Source: Anaerohalosphaeraceae bacterium
GTDB taxonomy: Bacteria; Planctomycetota; Phycisphaerae; Sedimentisphaerales; Anaerohalosphaeraceae
NCBI GenBank assembly: GCA_050309605.1
Contig: JBNRMN010000033.1
Coordinates: 160,001 to 224,000 of the forward strand
Reading direction: 5' to 3'
Length of the DNA: 64,000 nt
This document shows, in pieces, positions 23,603 to 27,899 of this stretch. The notes under the pieces were generated by a model. That model did not search any database. It saw nothing but the letters and a program-made list of their open reading frames with translations, and was not told the origin of the DNA. A program made the translations under genes and the position numbers. The first letter of the stretch is position 1, and each line of letters opens with the position of its first letter.

Positions 23603-25702
23603 TTATGGCATTTTTTTGAGACCTTCCCACTTAACGACCCATTTTCCATCGTCCGGAAATCCGGGGGCATTGCGCGTCGGGGCGTCGTCCCAGCCGGCGG
23701 CCATCATCGCCGCCGCTGTCAGCAGGCCGCCGTTGCCGGGCATATAGACCGGCAGGCCTTCACGCTGCCAGTTGTGTCCGTTGGGCAGATAGCGGTTTTT
23801 CTGCACTTCCAGCAGCAGGGCGTCAATCGCCCAATCCGGCCTGCCGACCCGTGCGGCGGTCATCGCGATCATCGGATAATCCCAGCCCCACGTGTCGCTC
23901 CAGTCCCAGTTGCGCAACACATGTTCGACGGTCCGCGTCATCACCGCCTCGTTGACCATTCGCGATTTGGGCAGCACGCCCCAGGCGGCCAGCATACAGG
24001 GATGTCCGCCGTCGGCAACGAGCGGATGTTCCTGCTCCACATAGACACCGTTGTGTATCGGCAGTATCGCCAGATTACCCGCGATGCGCTCCCACATCGC
24101 GGCCGGTTCCAGTCCGAGCCGCTGACGCCACTGGGAGGCGGTGCGCAGCGCCCAATGCCAATAGGCCAGCTCAAAGGCAGCATTTTTGGTTTCGGCATAG
24201 CGTTTCGGCTCAAATTCCCGTGCCGAAATCAGCGGCGGCCCCAGTACAAAACTTTCGCTGAGGTCGTCCCAGTGTGCAAAATCGGCCATAAACGTCGCCG
24301 TTTCAAAAACGATGTCCTGGTATTTTTCCAGCGTTTCAGTGGTCGGATTTTCACGATAAAGCAGCTCGGCATAATAAATCGGATGCGGTTGCTGCCAAAT
24401 CAGCAGCGGCCCGATGCCCGAAGGAGCGTCCTGACCGTCGGGGCCGACCATCTTGGGCCAGCGCACGCCGGCATAGCCCTGCCGCTCGGCAATCTGTCGC
24501 GCGACCGGCATAATCTGTTCATACCACGCCAGCGACCGCTCGAATAAAGCACTGCGTCCCCAGAGCATCCACTGCACGCCGTGCCACCAGTGCATTTCCA
24601 AATGAAACTTGCCGAACCAGCTCGTGCAGGTCAGCCCCGTCTCGGCCGGCGGGTACTTCTGGGCAGACTGAAGACCCATCAGATACTGCGACAGCACAAT
24701 CCGCCGTTCCAGCTCATACCAGCGTTCGTCGCTGCTTTCGGACAAGTCAATCGCTCCGCCGGAGGTCCAGAAATTGTGCCAATGAGTCGCGGCCTTGCGG
24801 CTGATGTCCTCGAATGATTCGACGGGCGAATCGATGGGCGTCTGTGAAAAGAGGACCGAAAACGTCAACGTCTCATCGCCGTTCGGCCCGAACAGCAGGT
24901 ATTCGTGACGATCAGTCTTGAGCAGCTTGCCGTTGTGGTGAATGCGGCAGAAATACGTCAGTGTATCCAGTTCGCGCTCGATCAGGGCGCTGGTTTCGTT
25001 TTCGCGGACTGTTTGGGTCCGATGTTTGCTCGGCTGCGACCAGTCGGCCGGGTCATTGCCCCATGTCGCCGACGGATACGGAAAACGCAGGGCGATTTTG
25101 ACACGTCCGTCCCGCAGCAGGGCGCTGTCAATCGACACGGCGATGCCGTCATAGTCGGGATGTGCGACGGTGTGTACTTCGACCGGCTGGCCGTCGATGG
25201 CAAATCGGCTGACGAGCCGTCCTTCCCACAGCCGCAGTGTTTGGTTGATTTGCGACAGATCGGCCACGGTCAGCCGCCTGCCGTTTTCATCCGTCAGGAC
25301 AAAGCCGATCTGCCCCAGATGCGTTTGATGCGGATTGGCTCGCAGATAGCGTCCGGCGGGGGATTCACTGATGATGTTGTACTCCACCGCTCGGCCGTAG
25401 GTATCGGCCTTGACAAAGGTATCGGCCAGCGTATAGCCCTCGGTGTTTTCGAATCGGTTCCAGCCCCACTCGGCCATTGTGGTCAAGGGAATCGTGTTCG
25501 CGTAGTGGGCGGGAAAACTTTGCAGCCCGGTTACATCGGCGTTAAACGCAAATCGCCCGTTGCCTACCGACAGCGGCGCCAGCGGATCGGCGGCGGTCAG
25601 CTTGACATCGTGTCGGCTGACAAGCGCCTTGCGGTCAATCCCCTCTGCCCGGATTGCACCGCCAACCACCGCGACCCACACCAACGCCATCCGAATGTCC
25701 AT
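23603..25702 (-). CDS. Secreted glycoside hydrolase, GH65-like (alpha/alpha)6 barrel
   Basis: Signal peptide, IDRKALVSRH, LSVGNGRFAF, SWFGKFHLEM, WQQPHP, WGWDYP, PGNGGLL. Confidence 0.8.
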   Translation of the reverse strand: MDIRMALVWVAVVGGAIRAEGIDRKALVSRHDVKLTAADPLAPLSVGNGRFAFNADVTGLQSFPAHYANTIPLTTMAEWGWNRFENTEGYTLADTFVKADTYGRAVEYNIISESPAGRYLRANPHQTHLGQIGFVLTDENGRRLTVADLSQINQTLRLWEGRLVSRFAIDGQPVEVHTVAHPDYDGIAVSIDSALLRDGRVKIALRFPYPSATWGNDPADWSQPSKHRTQTVRENETSALIERELDTLTYFCRIHHNGKLLKTDRHEYLLFGPNGDETLTFSVLFSQTPIDSPVESFEDISRKAATHWHNFWTSGGAIDLSESSDERWYELERRIVLSQYLMGLQSAQKYPPAETGLTCTSWFGKFHLEMHWWHGVQWMLWGRSALFERSLAWYEQIMPVARQIAERQGYAGVRWPKMVGPDGQDAPSGIGPLLIWQQPHPIYYAELLYRENPTTETLEKYQDIVFETATFMADFAHWDDLSESFVLGPPLISAREFEPKRYAETKNAAFELAYWHWALRTASQWRQRLGLEPAAMWERIAGNLAILPIHNGVYVEQEHPLVADGGHPCMLAAWGVLPKSRMVNEAVMTRTVEHVLRNWDWSDTWGWDYPMIAMTAARVGRPDWAIDALLLEVQKNRYLPNGHNWQREGLPVYMPGNGGLLTAAAMMAAGWDDAPTRNAPGFPDDGKWVVKWEGLKKMP

Positions 25703-25771
25703 ACTTGGCCTCCCAATATGCAATGATCAATAATCAATTGAAAGAGTGGGTCTGTAAGCCGAGTTCTGTAT

Positions 25772-25867
25772 CCCCGCACCTAAAAATTGATATTGATCAT
25801 TATCCATCGATGATTGTTGTGTGAACGCAATATCAACGTTGTCAATCTTCAATTTTTAGGTGCGGGG
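25772..25867. repeat. 96-bp hairpin element with 19-bp perfect terminal inverted repeats (rnpB P19)
   Basis: CCCCGCACCTAAAAATTGA ... TCAATTTTTAGGTGCGGGG. Confidence 0.9.
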
Positions 25868-26168
25868 CAGCGGTCATTAAACTGGACCGGCCGTTGCCGA
25901 CCGGCTCTGACGACAGATCTGCCCGTCGTCAAGCGACCTACCCGCTGTGAAACGCCCGGGCCGGGCACACAGCATACTTGGTCTTGCAGGCGGTGGGGTT
26001 TGCCGTGCCGCCGCTGTTACCAGCGACGCGGTGCGCTCTTACCGCACCATTTCACCCTTACCTGTGCCCCGAAGGGCCATCGGCGGTGTCTTTTCTGCGG
26101 CACTTTCCCGCGGGTTGCCCCGGGCGGCCGTTAGCCGCCACCGTGCCCTGTCCTGCTCGGACTTTCCT

Positions 26169-26272
26169 CCCCGCACCTAAAAAAGTATGCACATATCACC
26201 CTCGTTGTGCTGTTCTTTGCACTCAGAACCACAGCACACAATCGTATCAGACCTACTTTTTTAGGTGCGGGG
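26169..26272. repeat. 104-bp hairpin element with 19-bp perfect terminal inverted repeats (rnpB P3)
   Basis: CCCCGCACCTAAAAAAGTA ... TACTTTTTTAGGTGCGGGG. Confidence 0.9.
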
Positions 26273-26413
26273 CGACCGCCCGACCCACTCTTTCAGAGTC
26301 CTATTATAAAGGGTAATGAGCGCAGATAAAGAAGGTTCGCCTGAAAATCGGCTTTTTGGCCTGTTTTTTGTGAAAAAAGGCCGCGATTGGAATCATCGCG
26401 GCCCGACAGAGAG

Positions 26414-27091
26414 TCAGTTTTCCCGGACGAGTACGTCAAGGGTGCGTGTGCCCCATTTTTTGGCCACGGCGTGGGAATGGAAGAAGACGTCAAGGCGGTT
26501 GCCTTTGATAACCCGTCCGCGGTCCAGCACCTGCACGGACCGGTTGTCATTGTACCCCGGAATAATCATTTCAGTGCCGAATTGATACATTTTATCGGCG
26601 GCGACGAACACATCACCCGGACGGATGCGGTGGTTGCAGGCGGTCACGCCGTCGGCAAACTTGCCGCAGCAGATGGAACACGGGCAATAGGCCGTGACGC
26701 GCATCCGGACAACCCGCCAGCGCTGGTCGTTTTTGACCACCTCATAGACTGCGTCCTGGTCATTTTGGTAGAGCCGTTCCAGGAGGTGCTGCTCAGCGGT
26801 GTAGCTTGACGTGTCCGCCTCGGCCTCGATTGGCTCTTCGGCTGCGGCGGCGGGCACATCCTCTTCATACGGCATCATCGCACGCAAATACAGGGTTCCG
26901 TCGGCGATAGCCATTGTCATGCAGCATCCGAGGACGAGCAAAAACAGGGCGGCCGCTGCCCATGCCGCGACGCCGAACAAATACGGCTGGCCCCCGTGCG
27001 GGCGCAAGGTTTTCTCCTGCTGTGCCAATTGTCGAACCTTTCCAAAAATATCGCATTCAGGCGGACTTACACAAGTCCTGTCCCCTTTCAC
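26414..27091 (-). CDS. 3D (Asp-Asp-Asp) domain membrane protein
   Basis: TM segment, VTAYCPC..CCG, VAAD, VLDRG..IKGNRLDVF. Confidence 0.88.
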   Translation of the reverse strand: MKGDRTCVSPPECDIFGKVRQLAQQEKTLRPHGGQPYLFGVAAWAAAALFLLVLGCCMTMAIADGTLYLRAMMPYEEDVPAAAAEEPIEAEADTSSYTAEQHLLERLYQNDQDAVYEVVKNDQRWRVVRMRVTAYCPCSICCGKFADGVTACNHRIRPGDVFVAADKMYQFGTEMIIPGYNDNRSVQVLDRGRVIKGNRLDVFFHSHAVAKKWGTRTLDVLVREN

Positions 27092-27198
27092 GTGAGCCGA
27101 TCTATTGTCGGCTCCTGACCTGTCCGGTCATCATTGAAAGGCCTTCCATGGCGCAGTAAACGACAAAAGCCCCGGTATCCGAGGGCTTCATTAACGGG

Positions 27199-27227
27199 AG
27201 CATAGCAAGTCAATATTAAAATGTCAA
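27199..27227 (-). promoter_or_regulatory. Putative sigma70 promoter of the 3D-domain gene
   Basis: TTGACA-N17-TATGCT with extended TG on the minus strand. Confidence 0.6.
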
Positions 27228-27899
27228 GCGACATCGCTGTAAAAGTGCGATTGAGGGGCCGATAAAATACCGGTTTTTAGTGTTGTAAGTAAGGTTTTTT
27301 GAAAAAACGTAAAATTTTCAGGGATTCACGACTCTTTTTATAGGTCAATTTTTTTGAATGCCTCGAATTTGAAATGGTGGTTTGCGCTCAAGTGAGCCGC
27401 GGGCGTCCATGCCCACGACCCTATGATACCCCAGATGCTCCTCGGCGCGTCGGGCGCGTACCGAGTACCTGTCCGTATCATCTGATGATCATTGCTGAAA
27501 TGCCTCGTTTTTTGTTCACGTCAGCCTCCTTAAAACACTCATTATTTGAGACCCTATTATACTGGCCCCTGAAGGGGATTCAATCCTCATTTCGGTGTTT
27601 TTCGAAAAAATATGAAAAATCGGTTCATTTGCGCCGGGAGATAATAAACACCATCACCGCCACAATCAGAACAATGACGAGCACTTCGTGTGAACTCAGC
27701 ATCACCGCGATCATCGCACGACCGTTCCGATAGATTGAATCATTCTGTTCATCGATCTGTTCATCGATTTCAATTATGCCGGCCCGGTGCAACGGGTCAA
27801 GTACTAATTTTTTGTGAAGCGGCATCCTGTTTTCTCTTGCGAATGCTTTGATGTCTTTTTATAGTAAACAAAAAGAACTTGTCGAGGGAGAACAGAAAA

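What the first reader, a model, noticed from the sequence alone, without database searches (positions are those of the whole stretch)
25740..26294. RNase P RNA whose P3 and P19 helices carry ~100-bp hairpins with the same terminal inverted repeat
Seen: the 15-mer CCCCGCACCTAAAAA occurs at 25772 and 26169, and its reverse complement ends at 25867 and 26272. Each pair extends to a perfect 19-bp stem around unrelated, partly self-complementary 58-66-nt interiors. They sit exactly at P19 (before ACAGAACTCGGCTTA) and P3 (before GAGGAAAGTCC), making the RNA ~555 nt. Known: P3 and P19 tolerate length variation, but identical stems in both are not expected. Inference: either a MITE-like palindromic element targets tolerant helices of structured RNAs, or these are intervening sequences excised by RNase III to give a fragmented ribozyme. 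The shared arms also allow P3/P19 cross-pairing, or deletion/inversion of the catalytic core.
Basis: partly seen in the sequence, partly recalled or inferred. Interest (0 to 1): 0.78.

Follow-up and report, generated by a model that had tools for sequence, protein, structure and literature searches.

The report
Ribosomal-type hairpin inserts in RNase P RNA
The RNase P RNA gene of this bacterium carries two ~100-base hairpin inserts of the same kind as the "intervening sequences" in its own 23S ribosomal RNA gene, so one family of selfish hairpin elements colonises several essential RNAs and may leave the ribozyme working in pieces.

Summary
rnpB (type A, 553 nt, minus strand 25739-26291) carries two rod-like hairpins of 104 nt at P3 and 96 nt at P19. 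Each has a perfect 19-bp stem, and the outer 15 nt are identical. The exact motif occurs nowhere else in the 3.4-Mb genome.

A related stem "cap" (CCCGCAC[C/T]TA + A/T run) closes two insertions in this genome's 23S rRNA gene. One lies at the classical helix-25 intervening-sequence (IVS) site. The other is a 303-nt cassette encoding a small GIY-YIG nuclease.

Across the window's order (probably Planctomycetota) I found 46 capped hairpins in 29 genomes, at P3, P9, P12, P15-18 and P19. There are up to three per gene, and the median size is ~102 nt. Congeners have empty sites. In several genomes whole hairpins were copied between helices.

The best reading is ORF-less members of an IVS-type hairpin family shared by rRNA and rnpB. 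Excision giving a three-piece ribozyme is plausible, because Thermodesulfatator indicus excises its P12 expansion, but it is untested here: no usable RNA data exist. Assembly artefact and genome-wide MITE readings are rejected.

This scan had already noted similar elements on other DNA (candidate phyla radiation, CPR, genomes). I found no paper describing them in rnpB.

The parts
25739..26291 (-). rnpB, bacterial type A RNase P RNA, 553 nt including two inserts; the only copy found in the genome
   Evidence: RF00010 at 268.1 bits, E 1.1e-87, model 1-367. One match in the own genome. rnpA is present at G000:C24:6109-6384.
26169..26272 (-). P3-site capped hairpin, 104 nt; it stands in place of the short P3 hairpin seen in insert-free relatives
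   Evidence: Arms 26169-26187 and 26254-26272, 19 nt, 100% complementary, 66 nt between them. An 83-nt insertion in the P3 loop of the Rfam alignment. Fold -49.8 kcal/mol, z -7.5. An orthologous hairpin occurs in congener G006; congeners G001 and G003 have a 20-nt P3 instead.
25772..25867 (-). P19-site capped hairpin, 96 nt, between the 3' strand of P2 and the ACAGAA strand of P4
   Evidence: Arms 25772-25790 and 25849-25867, 19 nt, 100% complementary, 58 nt between them. Placement. Fold -41.2 kcal/mol, z -8.5. Orthologue in G006. G001 has a 12-nt hairpin there.
26264..26272 (-). 5' strand (RNA sense) of the 9-bp G+C-rich cap of the P3 hairpin (CCCCGCACC); its partner is 26169-26177
   Evidence: In 44 distinct capped hairpins of relatives, the positions the detector left free were nearly invariant: pair 3 is C-G in 42 of 44 and pair 6 is A-T in 39 of 44. 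Pairs 1, 2, 4, 5 and 7 were fixed or limited by the search pattern. The cap occupies the place of the 9-bp P3 stem of the Rfam model.
25859..25867 (-). 5' strand (RNA sense) of the 9-bp cap of the P19 hairpin; its partner is 25772-25780
   Evidence: Same 15-nt outer arm as the P3 hairpin.
26178..26263 (-). A/U-rich stem continuation and variable interior of the P3 hairpin; the part proposed to be cut out (inferred)
   Evidence: G+C falls to 0.49 in window 26150-26249, against 0.61-0.68 in the core. Between G000 and G006 the interior is 46 of 66 identical and aligns best when flipped, while the ribozyme core is 99% identical.
25781..25858 (-). A/U-rich stem continuation and variable interior of the P19 hairpin; the part proposed to be cut out (inferred)
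   Evidence: G+C 0.39-0.40 in windows 25700-25849. Against G006 the interior is 49 of 70 identical, with an 11-nt indel.

Best explanation
The two hairpins are gene-less members of a family of 'capped' hairpin cassettes of the rRNA intervening-sequence (IVS) type. The family lives on the tips of exposed helices of stable RNA genes. Each cassette brings its own closing helix: a conserved 9-bp G+C-rich cap (CCCCGCACC / GGUGCGGGG), then an A/U-rich stem, then a fast-evolving interior. It replaces the native helix tip. In this genome the family occupies four places: P3 and P19 of rnpB, the helix-25 site of 23S rRNA, and a second 23S site where the cassette carries a small GIY-YIG nuclease gene.

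Shown: the shared cap, the confinement to stable RNA genes, the recurrence at five rnpB regions across the order, empty sites in congeners, copying of whole hairpins between helices of one gene in relatives, conserved arms with a rapidly diverging interior, and pairing kept at the RNA level.

Inferred, at about even odds: after transcription a host endoribonuclease cuts the long duplex in or near the A/U-rich part. RNase III is the likeliest by analogy with rRNA IVSs; RNase E is an alternative. The interior is discarded. The cap then stays as a loop-less surrogate P3 or P19 that holds the pieces together. The active ribozyme would then be three RNAs of about 30, 310 and 35 nt.

Inferred, weaker: new copies arise by DNA-level copying between helix tips, possibly helped by the GIY-YIG nuclease.
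For: (1) Same cap in the genome's own rRNA. A loose hairpin scan of the genome gave 140 candidates. Only 3 had stems of 14 bp or more: the two rnpB hairpins and C1:64422. The third lies in the 23S gene at Rfam model position ~583. A further 287-nt insertion lies at ~285. Their stems read tCCCGCACTTACTTTG... and CCCAGCACCTATTTTAAC.... A cap-anchored scan of both strands gave 110 loose hits, and only these four places have the CCCGCAC/CCAGCAC cap with 15-16 of 16 pairs.
(2) The 303-nt cassette encodes a GIY-YIG protein (Pfam PF01541, E 6.5e-17). It is single copy in the genome.
(3) The closest GIY-YIG homologues in the order (48-58% identity) lie inside 23S genes in 6 of 15 loci scanned. They sit at three or more different sites, in ~300-nt cassettes closed by CCCCGCACCTATTTTTG-type stems.
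(4) rnpB across the order. I examined 73 rnpB sequences: 33 from the first sample, plus 40 of the longer genes from the order sample, chosen to take in all 46 of 140 order matches at or above 428 nt that I did not already hold. The cap detector found 46 capped hairpins in 29 genomes, at P3, P9, P12, the P15-18 region and P19, with up to 3 per gene and a median size of ~102 nt. A motif-agnostic scan found 62 hairpins with uninterrupted stems of 14 bp or more, and 45 have the cap.
(5) Copying between helices. Interiors are homologous between helices of one gene in G097 (P3 against P19, 60 of 63 identical, z 16), G059, G042, G141 and G063, and in G009 by eye.
(6) Empty sites. Congeners G001 and G003 carry short native P3 and P19. 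Relatives' contigs in run X5 skip 25773-25870 and replace 26170-26271 by 14-16 nt.
(7) Arms conserved, interior free. The G000 and G006 cores are 99% identical and the P3 arms are identical, but the interiors are ~70% identical.
(8) RNA-level pairing. Across 44 distinct hairpins x 20 pairs there are 57 G.U against 8 A.C (47 against 8 at pairs 8-20). G002's P19 arm shows a compensated A-T to C-G change, and G002 and G006 arms show wobbles.
(9) Low G+C of the inserts and rod-like folds.
(10) A precedent for excision. Thermodesulfatator indicus P RNA loses the distal part of its expanded P12 in vivo and in E. coli, with ends clustering in the A/U-rich part (PMC9945441, passages read).
(11) The genome encodes RNase III.
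Against: No RNA evidence for this organism exists. The two metatranscriptome runs laid covered only the conserved core, from many other organisms, so excision is untested. P3, P12 and P19 are peripheral helices that may simply tolerate long extensions.

Only about 10 nt of cap is shared between the rnpB hairpins and the resident GIY-YIG cassette, so the rnpB copies are not recent deletion derivatives of it. The P3 and P19 interiors of this genome are unrelated, so copying between these two particular sites is not shown here. The identical arms could come from selection or gene conversion instead.

The G.U excess has three weaknesses: the detector accepted G.U as paired, related hairpins are not independent, and strand-biased mutation could contribute. 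No target-site duplication is visible, and no mobility mechanism is shown. The authors of PMC11270868 doubt that GIY-YIG insertions in CPR rRNA spread by homing.
Confidence: 0.62

Rival explanations
1. Retained expansion segments. The hairpins stay in the mature RNase P RNA as long peripheral rods. They are either neutral passengers or binding platforms for a lineage-specific protein. The cap is conserved because it is that protein's site or a folding nucleus, not a processing signal.
For: P3, P12 and P19 vary in length among bacteria, and P19 is usual in the PVC group (PMC9945441, passage). Both hairpins fold locally without disturbing the predicted core. RNA-level pairing fits a retained structure as well as a processing substrate.
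Against: The interior diverges about 30% while the core diverges 1%, and it may have been flipped between congeners. That is odd for a functional domain. The same cap closes 23S insertions, including a 303-nt protein-coding one. This is hard to picture inside a mature ribosome, and the comparable class of 23S IVSs is known to be excised (PMC11270868, introduction passage).
Confidence: 0.3
2. The conserved arms are DNA-level recognition sites of the GIY-YIG nuclease. On this view the small GIY-YIG protein encoded in the 23S cassette cuts hairpin or single-stranded DNA at the cap, like an Ssn-type site-specific ssDNA nuclease. It thereby drives copying of gene-less hairpins in trans, as an autonomous/non-autonomous pair.
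For: ORF-bearing cassettes from several phyla are closed by related stems: Deferribacter, CPR and Pseudomonadales MAGs show the CCCnGCnCC type. Of 20 close homologues, 4 lie in 23S genes, 4 inside 16S genes and 6 within 120 nt of tRNA genes. Small single-domain GIY-YIG proteins of the Ssn family cut ssDNA next to hairpin repeats that flank their own genes (PMC11893778, sections 6, 7, 10, 17). Arms are homogenised within genomes: all three copies in G097 are alike, and likewise in G042 and G141.
Against: The published SRM search pattern is not enriched in this genome (19 hits against 22-32 in shuffled genomes), and no hit lies near the cassette or rnpB. Membership of cd10448 could not be tested. 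The closest solved structures are UPF0213 proteins of unknown function. The G.U-over-A.C bias points to selection on the RNA, not only on DNA. Congeners G006 and G002, which have capped rnpB hairpins, gave no or only weak GIY-YIG hits, although rRNA operons are often unassembled in such genomes.
Confidence: 0.25
3. Ordinary dispersed MITE or REP-like repeat that happened to land twice in rnpB.
For: Perfect 19-bp terminal inverted repeats and a uniform size of ~100 nt.
Against: The 15-mer, its 11-mers and the cap-hairpin design occur only in rnpB and 23S in this 99.7%-complete genome. There is no target-site duplication.
Confidence: 0.04
4. Assembly or chimera artefact.
For: The genome is a 97-contig assembly, probably from a metagenome.
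Against: Independent contigs from another study cover both hairpins with 0-2 differences. DNA runs of at least 5 studies hold 72% or more of the sampled words of the stretch. Orthologous hairpins occur in congeners G006 and G002.
Confidence: 0.01

Closest known systems
Intervening sequences (IVSs) of bacterial 23S rRNA genes (helices 9, 25, 45; Salmonella, Leptospira, Coxiella and others), excised by RNase III without religation
   Same: An extended A/T-rich hairpin replaces a helix tip of an essential stable RNA. Distribution among close relatives is sporadic. Some copies carry a small ORF. A member of the same cap family sits at the helix-25 site of this genome's own 23S gene.
   Different: The host here is RNase P RNA, at two sites in one gene. 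A specific 9-bp cap sequence is shared across sites and genera. Excision is not shown. What I know of classical IVSs comes from the introduction passage of PMC11270868 and from recall.
Non-intron insertions encoding GIY-YIG proteins in 16S/23S rRNA genes of CPR bacteria (Brown et al. 2015, as cited; Tsurumaki et al. 2024, PMC11270868, passages read)
   Same: This genome's 303-nt 23S cassette is of this kind: a GIY-YIG ORF with no group I or II intron. Its nearest relatives include CPR rRNA copies.
   Different: The paper treats rRNA genes of CPR only. A term search of its main text found 0 occurrences of 'hairpin' and of 'RNase P'. Here the lineage is probably Planctomycetota, and the gene-less relatives sit in rnpB.
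Excised P12 expansion segment of Thermodesulfatator indicus RNase P RNA (PMC9945441, passages read)
   Same: A long A/U-rich extension of a peripheral helix of a type A P RNA. It is cut out in the native host and in E. coli, leaving a fragmented P RNA. The cleavage region begins right after a short run of C.
   Different: That is a single helix in a single species, not described as a mobile or repeated element and not linked to rRNA IVSs. Here there are two sites in this genome, five regions across the order, and a shared cap. Whether cutting occurs here is unknown.
Ssn nucleases and their NTS/SRM hairpin repeats (Chenal et al. 2025, PMC11893778; outline and sections 6, 7, 10, 17 read)
   Same: A small single-domain GIY-YIG protein whose gene is flanked by hairpin-forming repeats that also occur without the gene.
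   Different: SRMs are ~28-nt self-contained hairpins scattered in hundreds of copies. Here the two arms pair with each other around the gene, copies are few, and all lie in stable RNA genes. The SRM pattern is not enriched and is absent from the cassette.
MITEs and palindromic elements inside genes
   Same: Short palindromic elements that insert into functional genes at tolerated positions.
   Different: Those are dispersed through the genome, often in protein-coding genes. This family was found only in stable RNA genes of this genome.

Membership tests
Bacterial RNase P RNA, type A (RF00010) | Covariance-model score above the curated threshold over the full model | tested here: met
   268.1 bits against a gathering score of 100, model positions 1-367, no truncation.
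Bacterial RNase P RNA, type A (RF00010) | Conserved P4 strands (GAGGAAAGUCC and ACAGAA) and a partner protein gene | tested here: met
   Both motifs are present in the alignment. rnpA (PF00825) scores E 7.3e-24 at C24:6109-6384.
rRNA-type intervening sequence (IVS) | Extended hairpin replacing the tip of a helix of a stable RNA gene, with lower G+C than the host gene | tested here: met
   G+C is 0.39-0.49 in the inserts against 0.61-0.68 in the core.
rRNA-type intervening sequence (IVS) | Sporadic presence among close relatives (filled and empty sites) | tested here: met
   In the same genus, G000, G006 and G002 are filled and G001 and G003 are empty. Empty-site contigs of relatives occur in run X5.
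rRNA-type intervening sequence (IVS) | Located in 23S rRNA at the classical sites | tested here: inconclusive
   The two hairpins of the finding are in rnpB, not in rRNA. A hairpin with the same cap is at the helix-25 site of this genome's 23S (model position ~583) and in G097 and G074.
rRNA-type intervening sequence (IVS) | Excised from the transcript by RNase III without religation, giving a fragmented RNA | not testable with these tools
   No RNA reads of this organism are available. The rnc gene is present.
MITE | Terminal inverted repeats | tested here: met
   19-bp perfect arms.
MITE | Target-site duplication and many dispersed copies | tested here: not met
   No direct repeat flanks either hairpin. 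There are four copies in the genome, all in rnpB or 23S.
Ssn nuclease / SRM repeat system | Single-domain GIY-YIG protein of ~100 aa | tested here: met
   PF01541, E 6.5e-17, residues 4-74 of a 118-aa ORF. Whether it falls in subfamily cd10448 could not be tested, because no CDD library was available.
Ssn nuclease / SRM repeat system | SRM motifs flanking the gene and enriched in the genome | tested here: not met
   The pattern from PMC11893778 section 17 gives 19 hits against 22-32 in three shuffled genomes. No hit lies within C1:62800-65200 or C33:185500-186500.
Group I / II intron | Intron ribozyme structure | tested here: not met
   No intron family reached threshold in window 24500-27500 or in the 23S locus L038.

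The most novel reading that the evidence does not exclude
A single cap-defined, GIY-YIG-linked mobile hairpin family is specialised for the helix tips of all stable RNA genes (23S, 16S, tRNA operons, RNase P RNA) across distant phyla. On this reading its conserved 9-bp cap does double duty. At the DNA level it is the nuclease's recognition site. At the RNA level it is the clamp that keeps the host RNA together after a host RNase removes the rest. This bacterium's RNase P would then be a naturally three-piece ribozyme.
Probability: 0.22. Interest if true: 0.8.

Novelty: new variant of a known kind. Interest (0 to 1): 0.6.

Why it matters
Three consequences would follow if the reading holds. First, it extends the concept of intervening sequences from rRNA to the RNase P ribozyme, and it shows that one element family, recognisable by a short conserved cap, colonises several essential RNAs of one cell. 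Second, it predicts a natural multi-piece RNase P RNA. That can be tested directly by Northern blot or RNA-end mapping, and it would add a second and more general case to the single published example (T. indicus). Third, the conserved cap and the uniform ~100-nt size give a concrete handle on how such elements are recognised, by a processing RNase or by the small GIY-YIG nuclease. On the practical side, annotation pipelines truncate such genes: the stricter Infernal search reported this rnpB as 464 nt instead of 553.

Tried and rejected
RNA evidence for excision. One search for runs found six RNA runs, each holding only 0.15-0.18 of the sampled words. I laid two of them (X15, X17). They covered only the conserved core (about 25966-26179) and the 3' end, from many other organisms. 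The absence of cover over the hairpins therefore says nothing.

Inversion or deletion of the core through the shared arms. No such joints were reported (contigs only), and the full-length fold keeps both hairpins local.

Exact and loosened motif searches of the genome. Nothing was found outside rnpB.

Other stable RNAs. The tmRNA gene is 355 nt. The assembled part of the 16S gene covers model positions 9-873 in 856 nt and has no insert. The rest of 16S and the 3' quarter of 23S are missing at contig ends, so more copies may exist.

Homology between this genome's P3 and P19 interiors. None was found.

Deletion-derivative idea. The rnpB hairpins share only the cap with the resident GIY-YIG cassette.

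Ssn/SRM membership. The pattern is not enriched.

Phylum-wide spread. Of the 20 longest rnpB genes fetched from a 151-genome phylum sample, 1 (G346) has the cap. The others carry unrelated hairpins.

Literature. Six full-text searches found no paper describing IVS-type or repeated hairpin elements in bacterial rnpB. In PMC7191817 a term search for insert, insertion, intervening, longest and repeat returned 0 occurrences. Subscription-journal papers such as Butler and Fuerst 2004 on planctomycete RNase P RNA are not in the library and were not read.

Taxonomy. The first Atlas call, on a glycoside-hydrolase-like neighbour, suggested Bacteroidota. The call on rpoB pointed to Planctomycetota in all three top clusters. 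I follow rpoB, with low certainty.
Full report
**1. Observation**

The stretch 25739-26291 is, on the minus strand, a complete bacterial type A RNase P RNA gene. RF00010 scores 268.1 bits against a gathering score of 100, E 1.1e-87, over model positions 1-367. The alignment places an 83-nt insertion in the loop of P3, immediately 5' of GAGGAAAGUCC. It places a second long insertion between the 3' strand of P2 and ACAGAAC, which is the P19 position.

That compares with 0.11 expected, and 0 of 100 shuffles reached four. It occurs nowhere else in the 3.4-Mb, 97-contig, 99.7%-complete genome at up to one mismatch. Each pair of arms is a perfect 19-bp inverted repeat around 58 or 66 nt.

As RNA, both inserts fold into long, nearly continuous rods. 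The P3 insert gives -49.8 kcal/mol (z -7.5) and the P19 insert -41.2 kcal/mol (z -8.5). In the full 553-nt RNA both fold locally, in the minimum-energy and in the centroid structure, with P1 closing the molecule. The inserts have 39-49% G+C, against 61-68% in the ribozyme core.

The sequence is not an assembly artefact. Contigs of run X5, from a study other than the likely source samples, cover 25600-25999 with no difference and 26120-26450 with two differences.

**2. The same stem closes insertions in the genome's own 23S rRNA gene**

A loose scan of the genome for hairpins with CCGC[AG]C[CT]-type ends gave 140 candidates. Only three had uninterrupted stems of 14 bp or more: the two rnpB hairpins and one at C1:64422. 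That third hairpin lies inside the 23S rRNA gene, as a ~100-nt insertion at Rfam LSU model position ~583. This is the helix-25 region, the classical IVS site.

The same gene has a further 287-nt insertion at model position ~285. Its stems read tCCCGCACTTACTTTG... and CCCAGCACCTATTTTAAC.... The helix-25 insert folds as the same kind of rod (-67.4 kcal/mol, z -9.3).

The larger insertion spans 303 nt and contains an ORF whose product matches the GIY-YIG catalytic domain (PF01541, E 6.5e-17). It is the only such gene found in the genome with this query. A cap-anchored scan of both strands of the whole genome gave 110 loose hits, but only these four places combine the CCCGCAC/CCAGCAC cap with 15-16 of 16 paired positions.

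The tmRNA gene has a normal length of 355 nt. The assembled part of the 16S gene has no insert. The 16S and 23S genes are cut by contig ends, so the census is a lower bound.

**3. Relatives**

In a first sample of 41 genomes, 33 had an rnpB above threshold. In the window's genus, G006 has orthologous hairpins at P3 and P19. G002 has capped hairpins at P3, P12 and P19. G001 and G003 have ordinary short helices: a 20-nt P3 and a 12-16-nt P19.

In a sample of 151 genomes of the order, 139 had an rnpB above threshold. By my reading of the table, 46 of the 140 listed matches above threshold were 428 nt or longer. I fetched all long ones that I did not already hold (40 regions). That gave 73 sequences in all, which I compared with the insert-free G001 gene.

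A cap-anchored detector found 46 capped hairpins in 29 genomes, after I dropped one false hit in G086. The sites are P3, P9, P12, the P15-18 region and P19. Three genomes have three each: G059, G063 and G097. This is a lower bound. Variants with altered caps (G007, G026, G085, G086, G153 and others) were missed, and most short rnpB genes were not fetched.

A scan that ignores sequence found 62 hairpins with uninterrupted stems of 14 bp or more and spans of 45-140 nt. Of these, 45 begin with the cap. Most of the other 17 are cap variants or cross-pairings between neighbouring capped hairpins.

Sizes cluster tightly. The median is about 102 nt, the main class is 92-108 nt, and a minor class is 67-69 nt.

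Outside the order the cap is rare. In a phylum sample of 151 genomes, 144 had an rnpB above threshold. I fetched the 20 longest of these genes, and only one (G346) has the cap.

**4. Signs of copying, selection and turnover**

- Copying between helices. In several genomes the whole hairpin, not just the arms, is shared between helices of one rnpB. In G097, P3 and P19 interiors are 60 of 63 identical (z 16). G059 gives 51 of 63. G042, G141 and G063 give z 7-10. G009's ~200-nt P12 and P19 inserts are alike over their full length by eye. So hairpins do get copied from one helix tip to another.
- This genome is an exception. Its P3 and P19 interiors are unrelated (z 1.6 and 0.7), so only the arms tie them together.
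- Arms conserved, interior free. Between G000 and G006 the ribozyme core is 99% identical and the 19-nt P3 arms are identical. The P3 interior is only 46 of 66 identical. It aligns without gaps only when flipped, with exact runs of 11 and 10 nt; in the same orientation the alignment needs many gaps. The P19 interior is 49 of 70 identical with an 11-nt indel.
- A possible flip. The flipped alignment suggests inversion of the interior across the inverted arms, or re-insertion in the other orientation. Because the interior is itself partly palindromic, I rate this as moderately supported.
- Pairing at the RNA level. Read in the sense of the RNA, mismatches in the first 20 stem pairs of 44 distinct hairpins are 57 G.U against 8 A.C (47 against 8 at pairs 8-20). 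There are also compensated changes, such as A-T to C-G in the P19 arm of G002. This points to pairing that matters in the transcript. The caveats are that the detector accepted G.U as paired, that related hairpins are not independent, and that strand-biased mutation may contribute.

**5. The gene-bearing relatives**

A six-frame search with the GIY-YIG protein hit 116 of 201 genomes of the order. I scanned the loci of the 15 best matches against Rfam. Six lie inside 23S genes, and these include all five with 48-58% identity. They sit at three or more different sites: about model positions 285 and 1900, and within 2697-2925.

These are ~300-nt cassettes closed by CCCCGCACCTATTTTTG-type stems, with a Shine-Dalgarno-like AGGAG just inside the 5' arm. 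Copies outside rRNA are also bracketed by ~290-300-nt inverted repeats, but with other sequences.

Across one genome per species of all prokaryotes, 20 close relatives were found. They include Deferribacter thermophilus, many CPR MAGs, a Pseudomonadales MAG and Bacteroidota MAGs. Four lie in 23S genes, four inside 16S genes, six within 120 nt of a tRNA gene, and one beside a group I intron. The rRNA-resident ones again have CCCnGCnCC-type stems. The cassette is thus a widespread passenger of stable-RNA transcription units.

**6. What is in print**

IVSs of 23S rRNA that RNase III removes without religation are long known. Tsurumaki et al. 2024 (PMC11270868, passages read) report that all GIY-YIG ORFs in CPR rRNA genes lie in insertions that are neither group I nor group II introns. 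They doubt that these spread by homing. A term search of that paper's main text found no occurrence of 'hairpin' or 'RNase P'.

PMC9945441 (passages read) reports on the P RNA of Thermodesulfatator indicus. Its expanded P12 is cut on both sides of its A/U-rich part, in the native host and in E. coli, which leaves a fragmented P RNA. The responsible RNase is not identified; the authors discuss RNase E and RNase III. The same paper notes that P19 is usual in the PVC group.

Chenal et al. 2025 (PMC11893778; outline and sections 6, 7, 10, 17 read) show that small single-domain GIY-YIG proteins of the Ssn family cut single-stranded DNA next to hairpin repeats that flank their own genes. Their SRM pattern is not enriched in this genome (19 hits against 22-32 in shuffles) and is absent from the cassette and from rnpB. 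The closest solved structures to the protein are UPF0213 proteins of unknown function (1ZG2 at E 2.9e-8, and 1YWL).

Six full-text searches found no description of IVS-type or repeated hairpin elements in bacterial rnpB. The library lacks most subscription journals.

**7. Earlier notes of this scan**

After I had formed the reading above (logged), look-ups showed that other agents had noted hairpin cassettes in rnpB and rRNA of CPR bacteria, some with GIY-YIG genes. No note concerns this genome or this sequence. Those notes are unchecked and are not counted as evidence here. One of them led me to the Ssn paper, whose motif I then tested and did not find.

**8. Interpretation**

The two hairpins are gene-less members of a cap-defined, IVS-type hairpin family that colonises helix tips of stable RNA genes. 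That part rests on direct sequence evidence, and I hold it at about 0.85.

The mechanism is inferred. The design is a 9-bp G+C clamp sitting exactly where the native P3 or P19 stem would be, then an A/U-rich perfect duplex of about two helical turns, then a disposable interior. It fits a substrate that a double-strand-specific RNase cuts, after which the clamp holds the pieces together. The presence of rnc, the behaviour of rRNA IVSs and the T. indicus precedent make this plausible. I put excision at about even odds. The main rival is that the rods simply stay on the mature RNA.

How new copies arise is open. A role for the GIY-YIG nuclease is attractive but unsupported by any test here.

The organism is probably a member of the Planctomycetota, because the three nearest Atlas clusters of its rpoB are commonest in that phylum. 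This is a weak assignment. DNA runs that hold the stretch come from litter, soil, sludge and digester metagenomes.

**9. Verdict**

This is a new variant of a known kind: IVS-type elements in a new host RNA and lineage, with a defined conserved cap. It is of moderate to good interest because it predicts a testable multi-piece ribozyme.

Noticed in passing
G000:C1 (locus L038 1396-1698), outside the window: The 303-nt capped cassette in the 23S rRNA gene encodes a GIY-YIG protein. The ORF (L038 1418-1774) has no stop codon inside the cassette. It reads through the 3' arm into rRNA sequence. Relatives keep an AGGAG just inside the 5' arm, which suggests the ORF is translated from a piece of the rRNA precursor.
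   Followed up: partly
window 26188-26253 compared with G006 (locus L033): The interior of the P3 hairpin appears inverted between two congeners whose ribozyme cores are 99% identical. The alignment is ungapped with 46 of 66 identical when flipped, and gapped otherwise.
   Followed up: partly
Loci L081, L086, L090, L091, L093, L096 (other phyla) and L054 (G036): Close GIY-YIG homologues lie within about 120 nt of tRNA genes. In L054 and L090 the flanking repeat includes tRNA T-arm-like sequence, as if part of the tRNA gene were duplicated around the cassette.
   Followed up: no
Locus L036 (G009 rnpB): Two ~200-nt capped inserts, at P12 and P19, are alike over their whole length. They are full of short A/T-rich direct repeats, and they bring this rnpB to about 770 nt.
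   Followed up: partly
rnpB of G063 and G118 (loci L123, L115): A ~70-nt insert in the P13 loop has a different, non-cap stem (TTCATCCTGCGTAGC...), and both genomes share it. G056 and G061 carry another stem type (CCTGTCAC...) at both P3 and P19.
   Followed up: no
Locus L062 (G030:C27) and L079: A group I intron (RF00028) lies next to a GIY-YIG homologue. These copies may be conventional intron-associated endonucleases rather than hairpin cassettes.
   Followed up: no
window 23603-25723 (-): A 706-aa glycoside-hydrolase-like gene starts about 36 nt downstream of rnpB on the same strand (Atlas: GH65/GH95-like clusters). The same gene follows rnpB in congeners G006 and G002. No terminator was looked for.
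   Followed up: no
window 25739-26291: Infernal with stricter filters reported this rnpB as 185739-186202 in contig coordinates (464 nt), which drops the 5' end beyond the P3 hairpin. Several relatives were truncated in the same way, so automatic annotation will mis-size such genes.
   Followed up: yes
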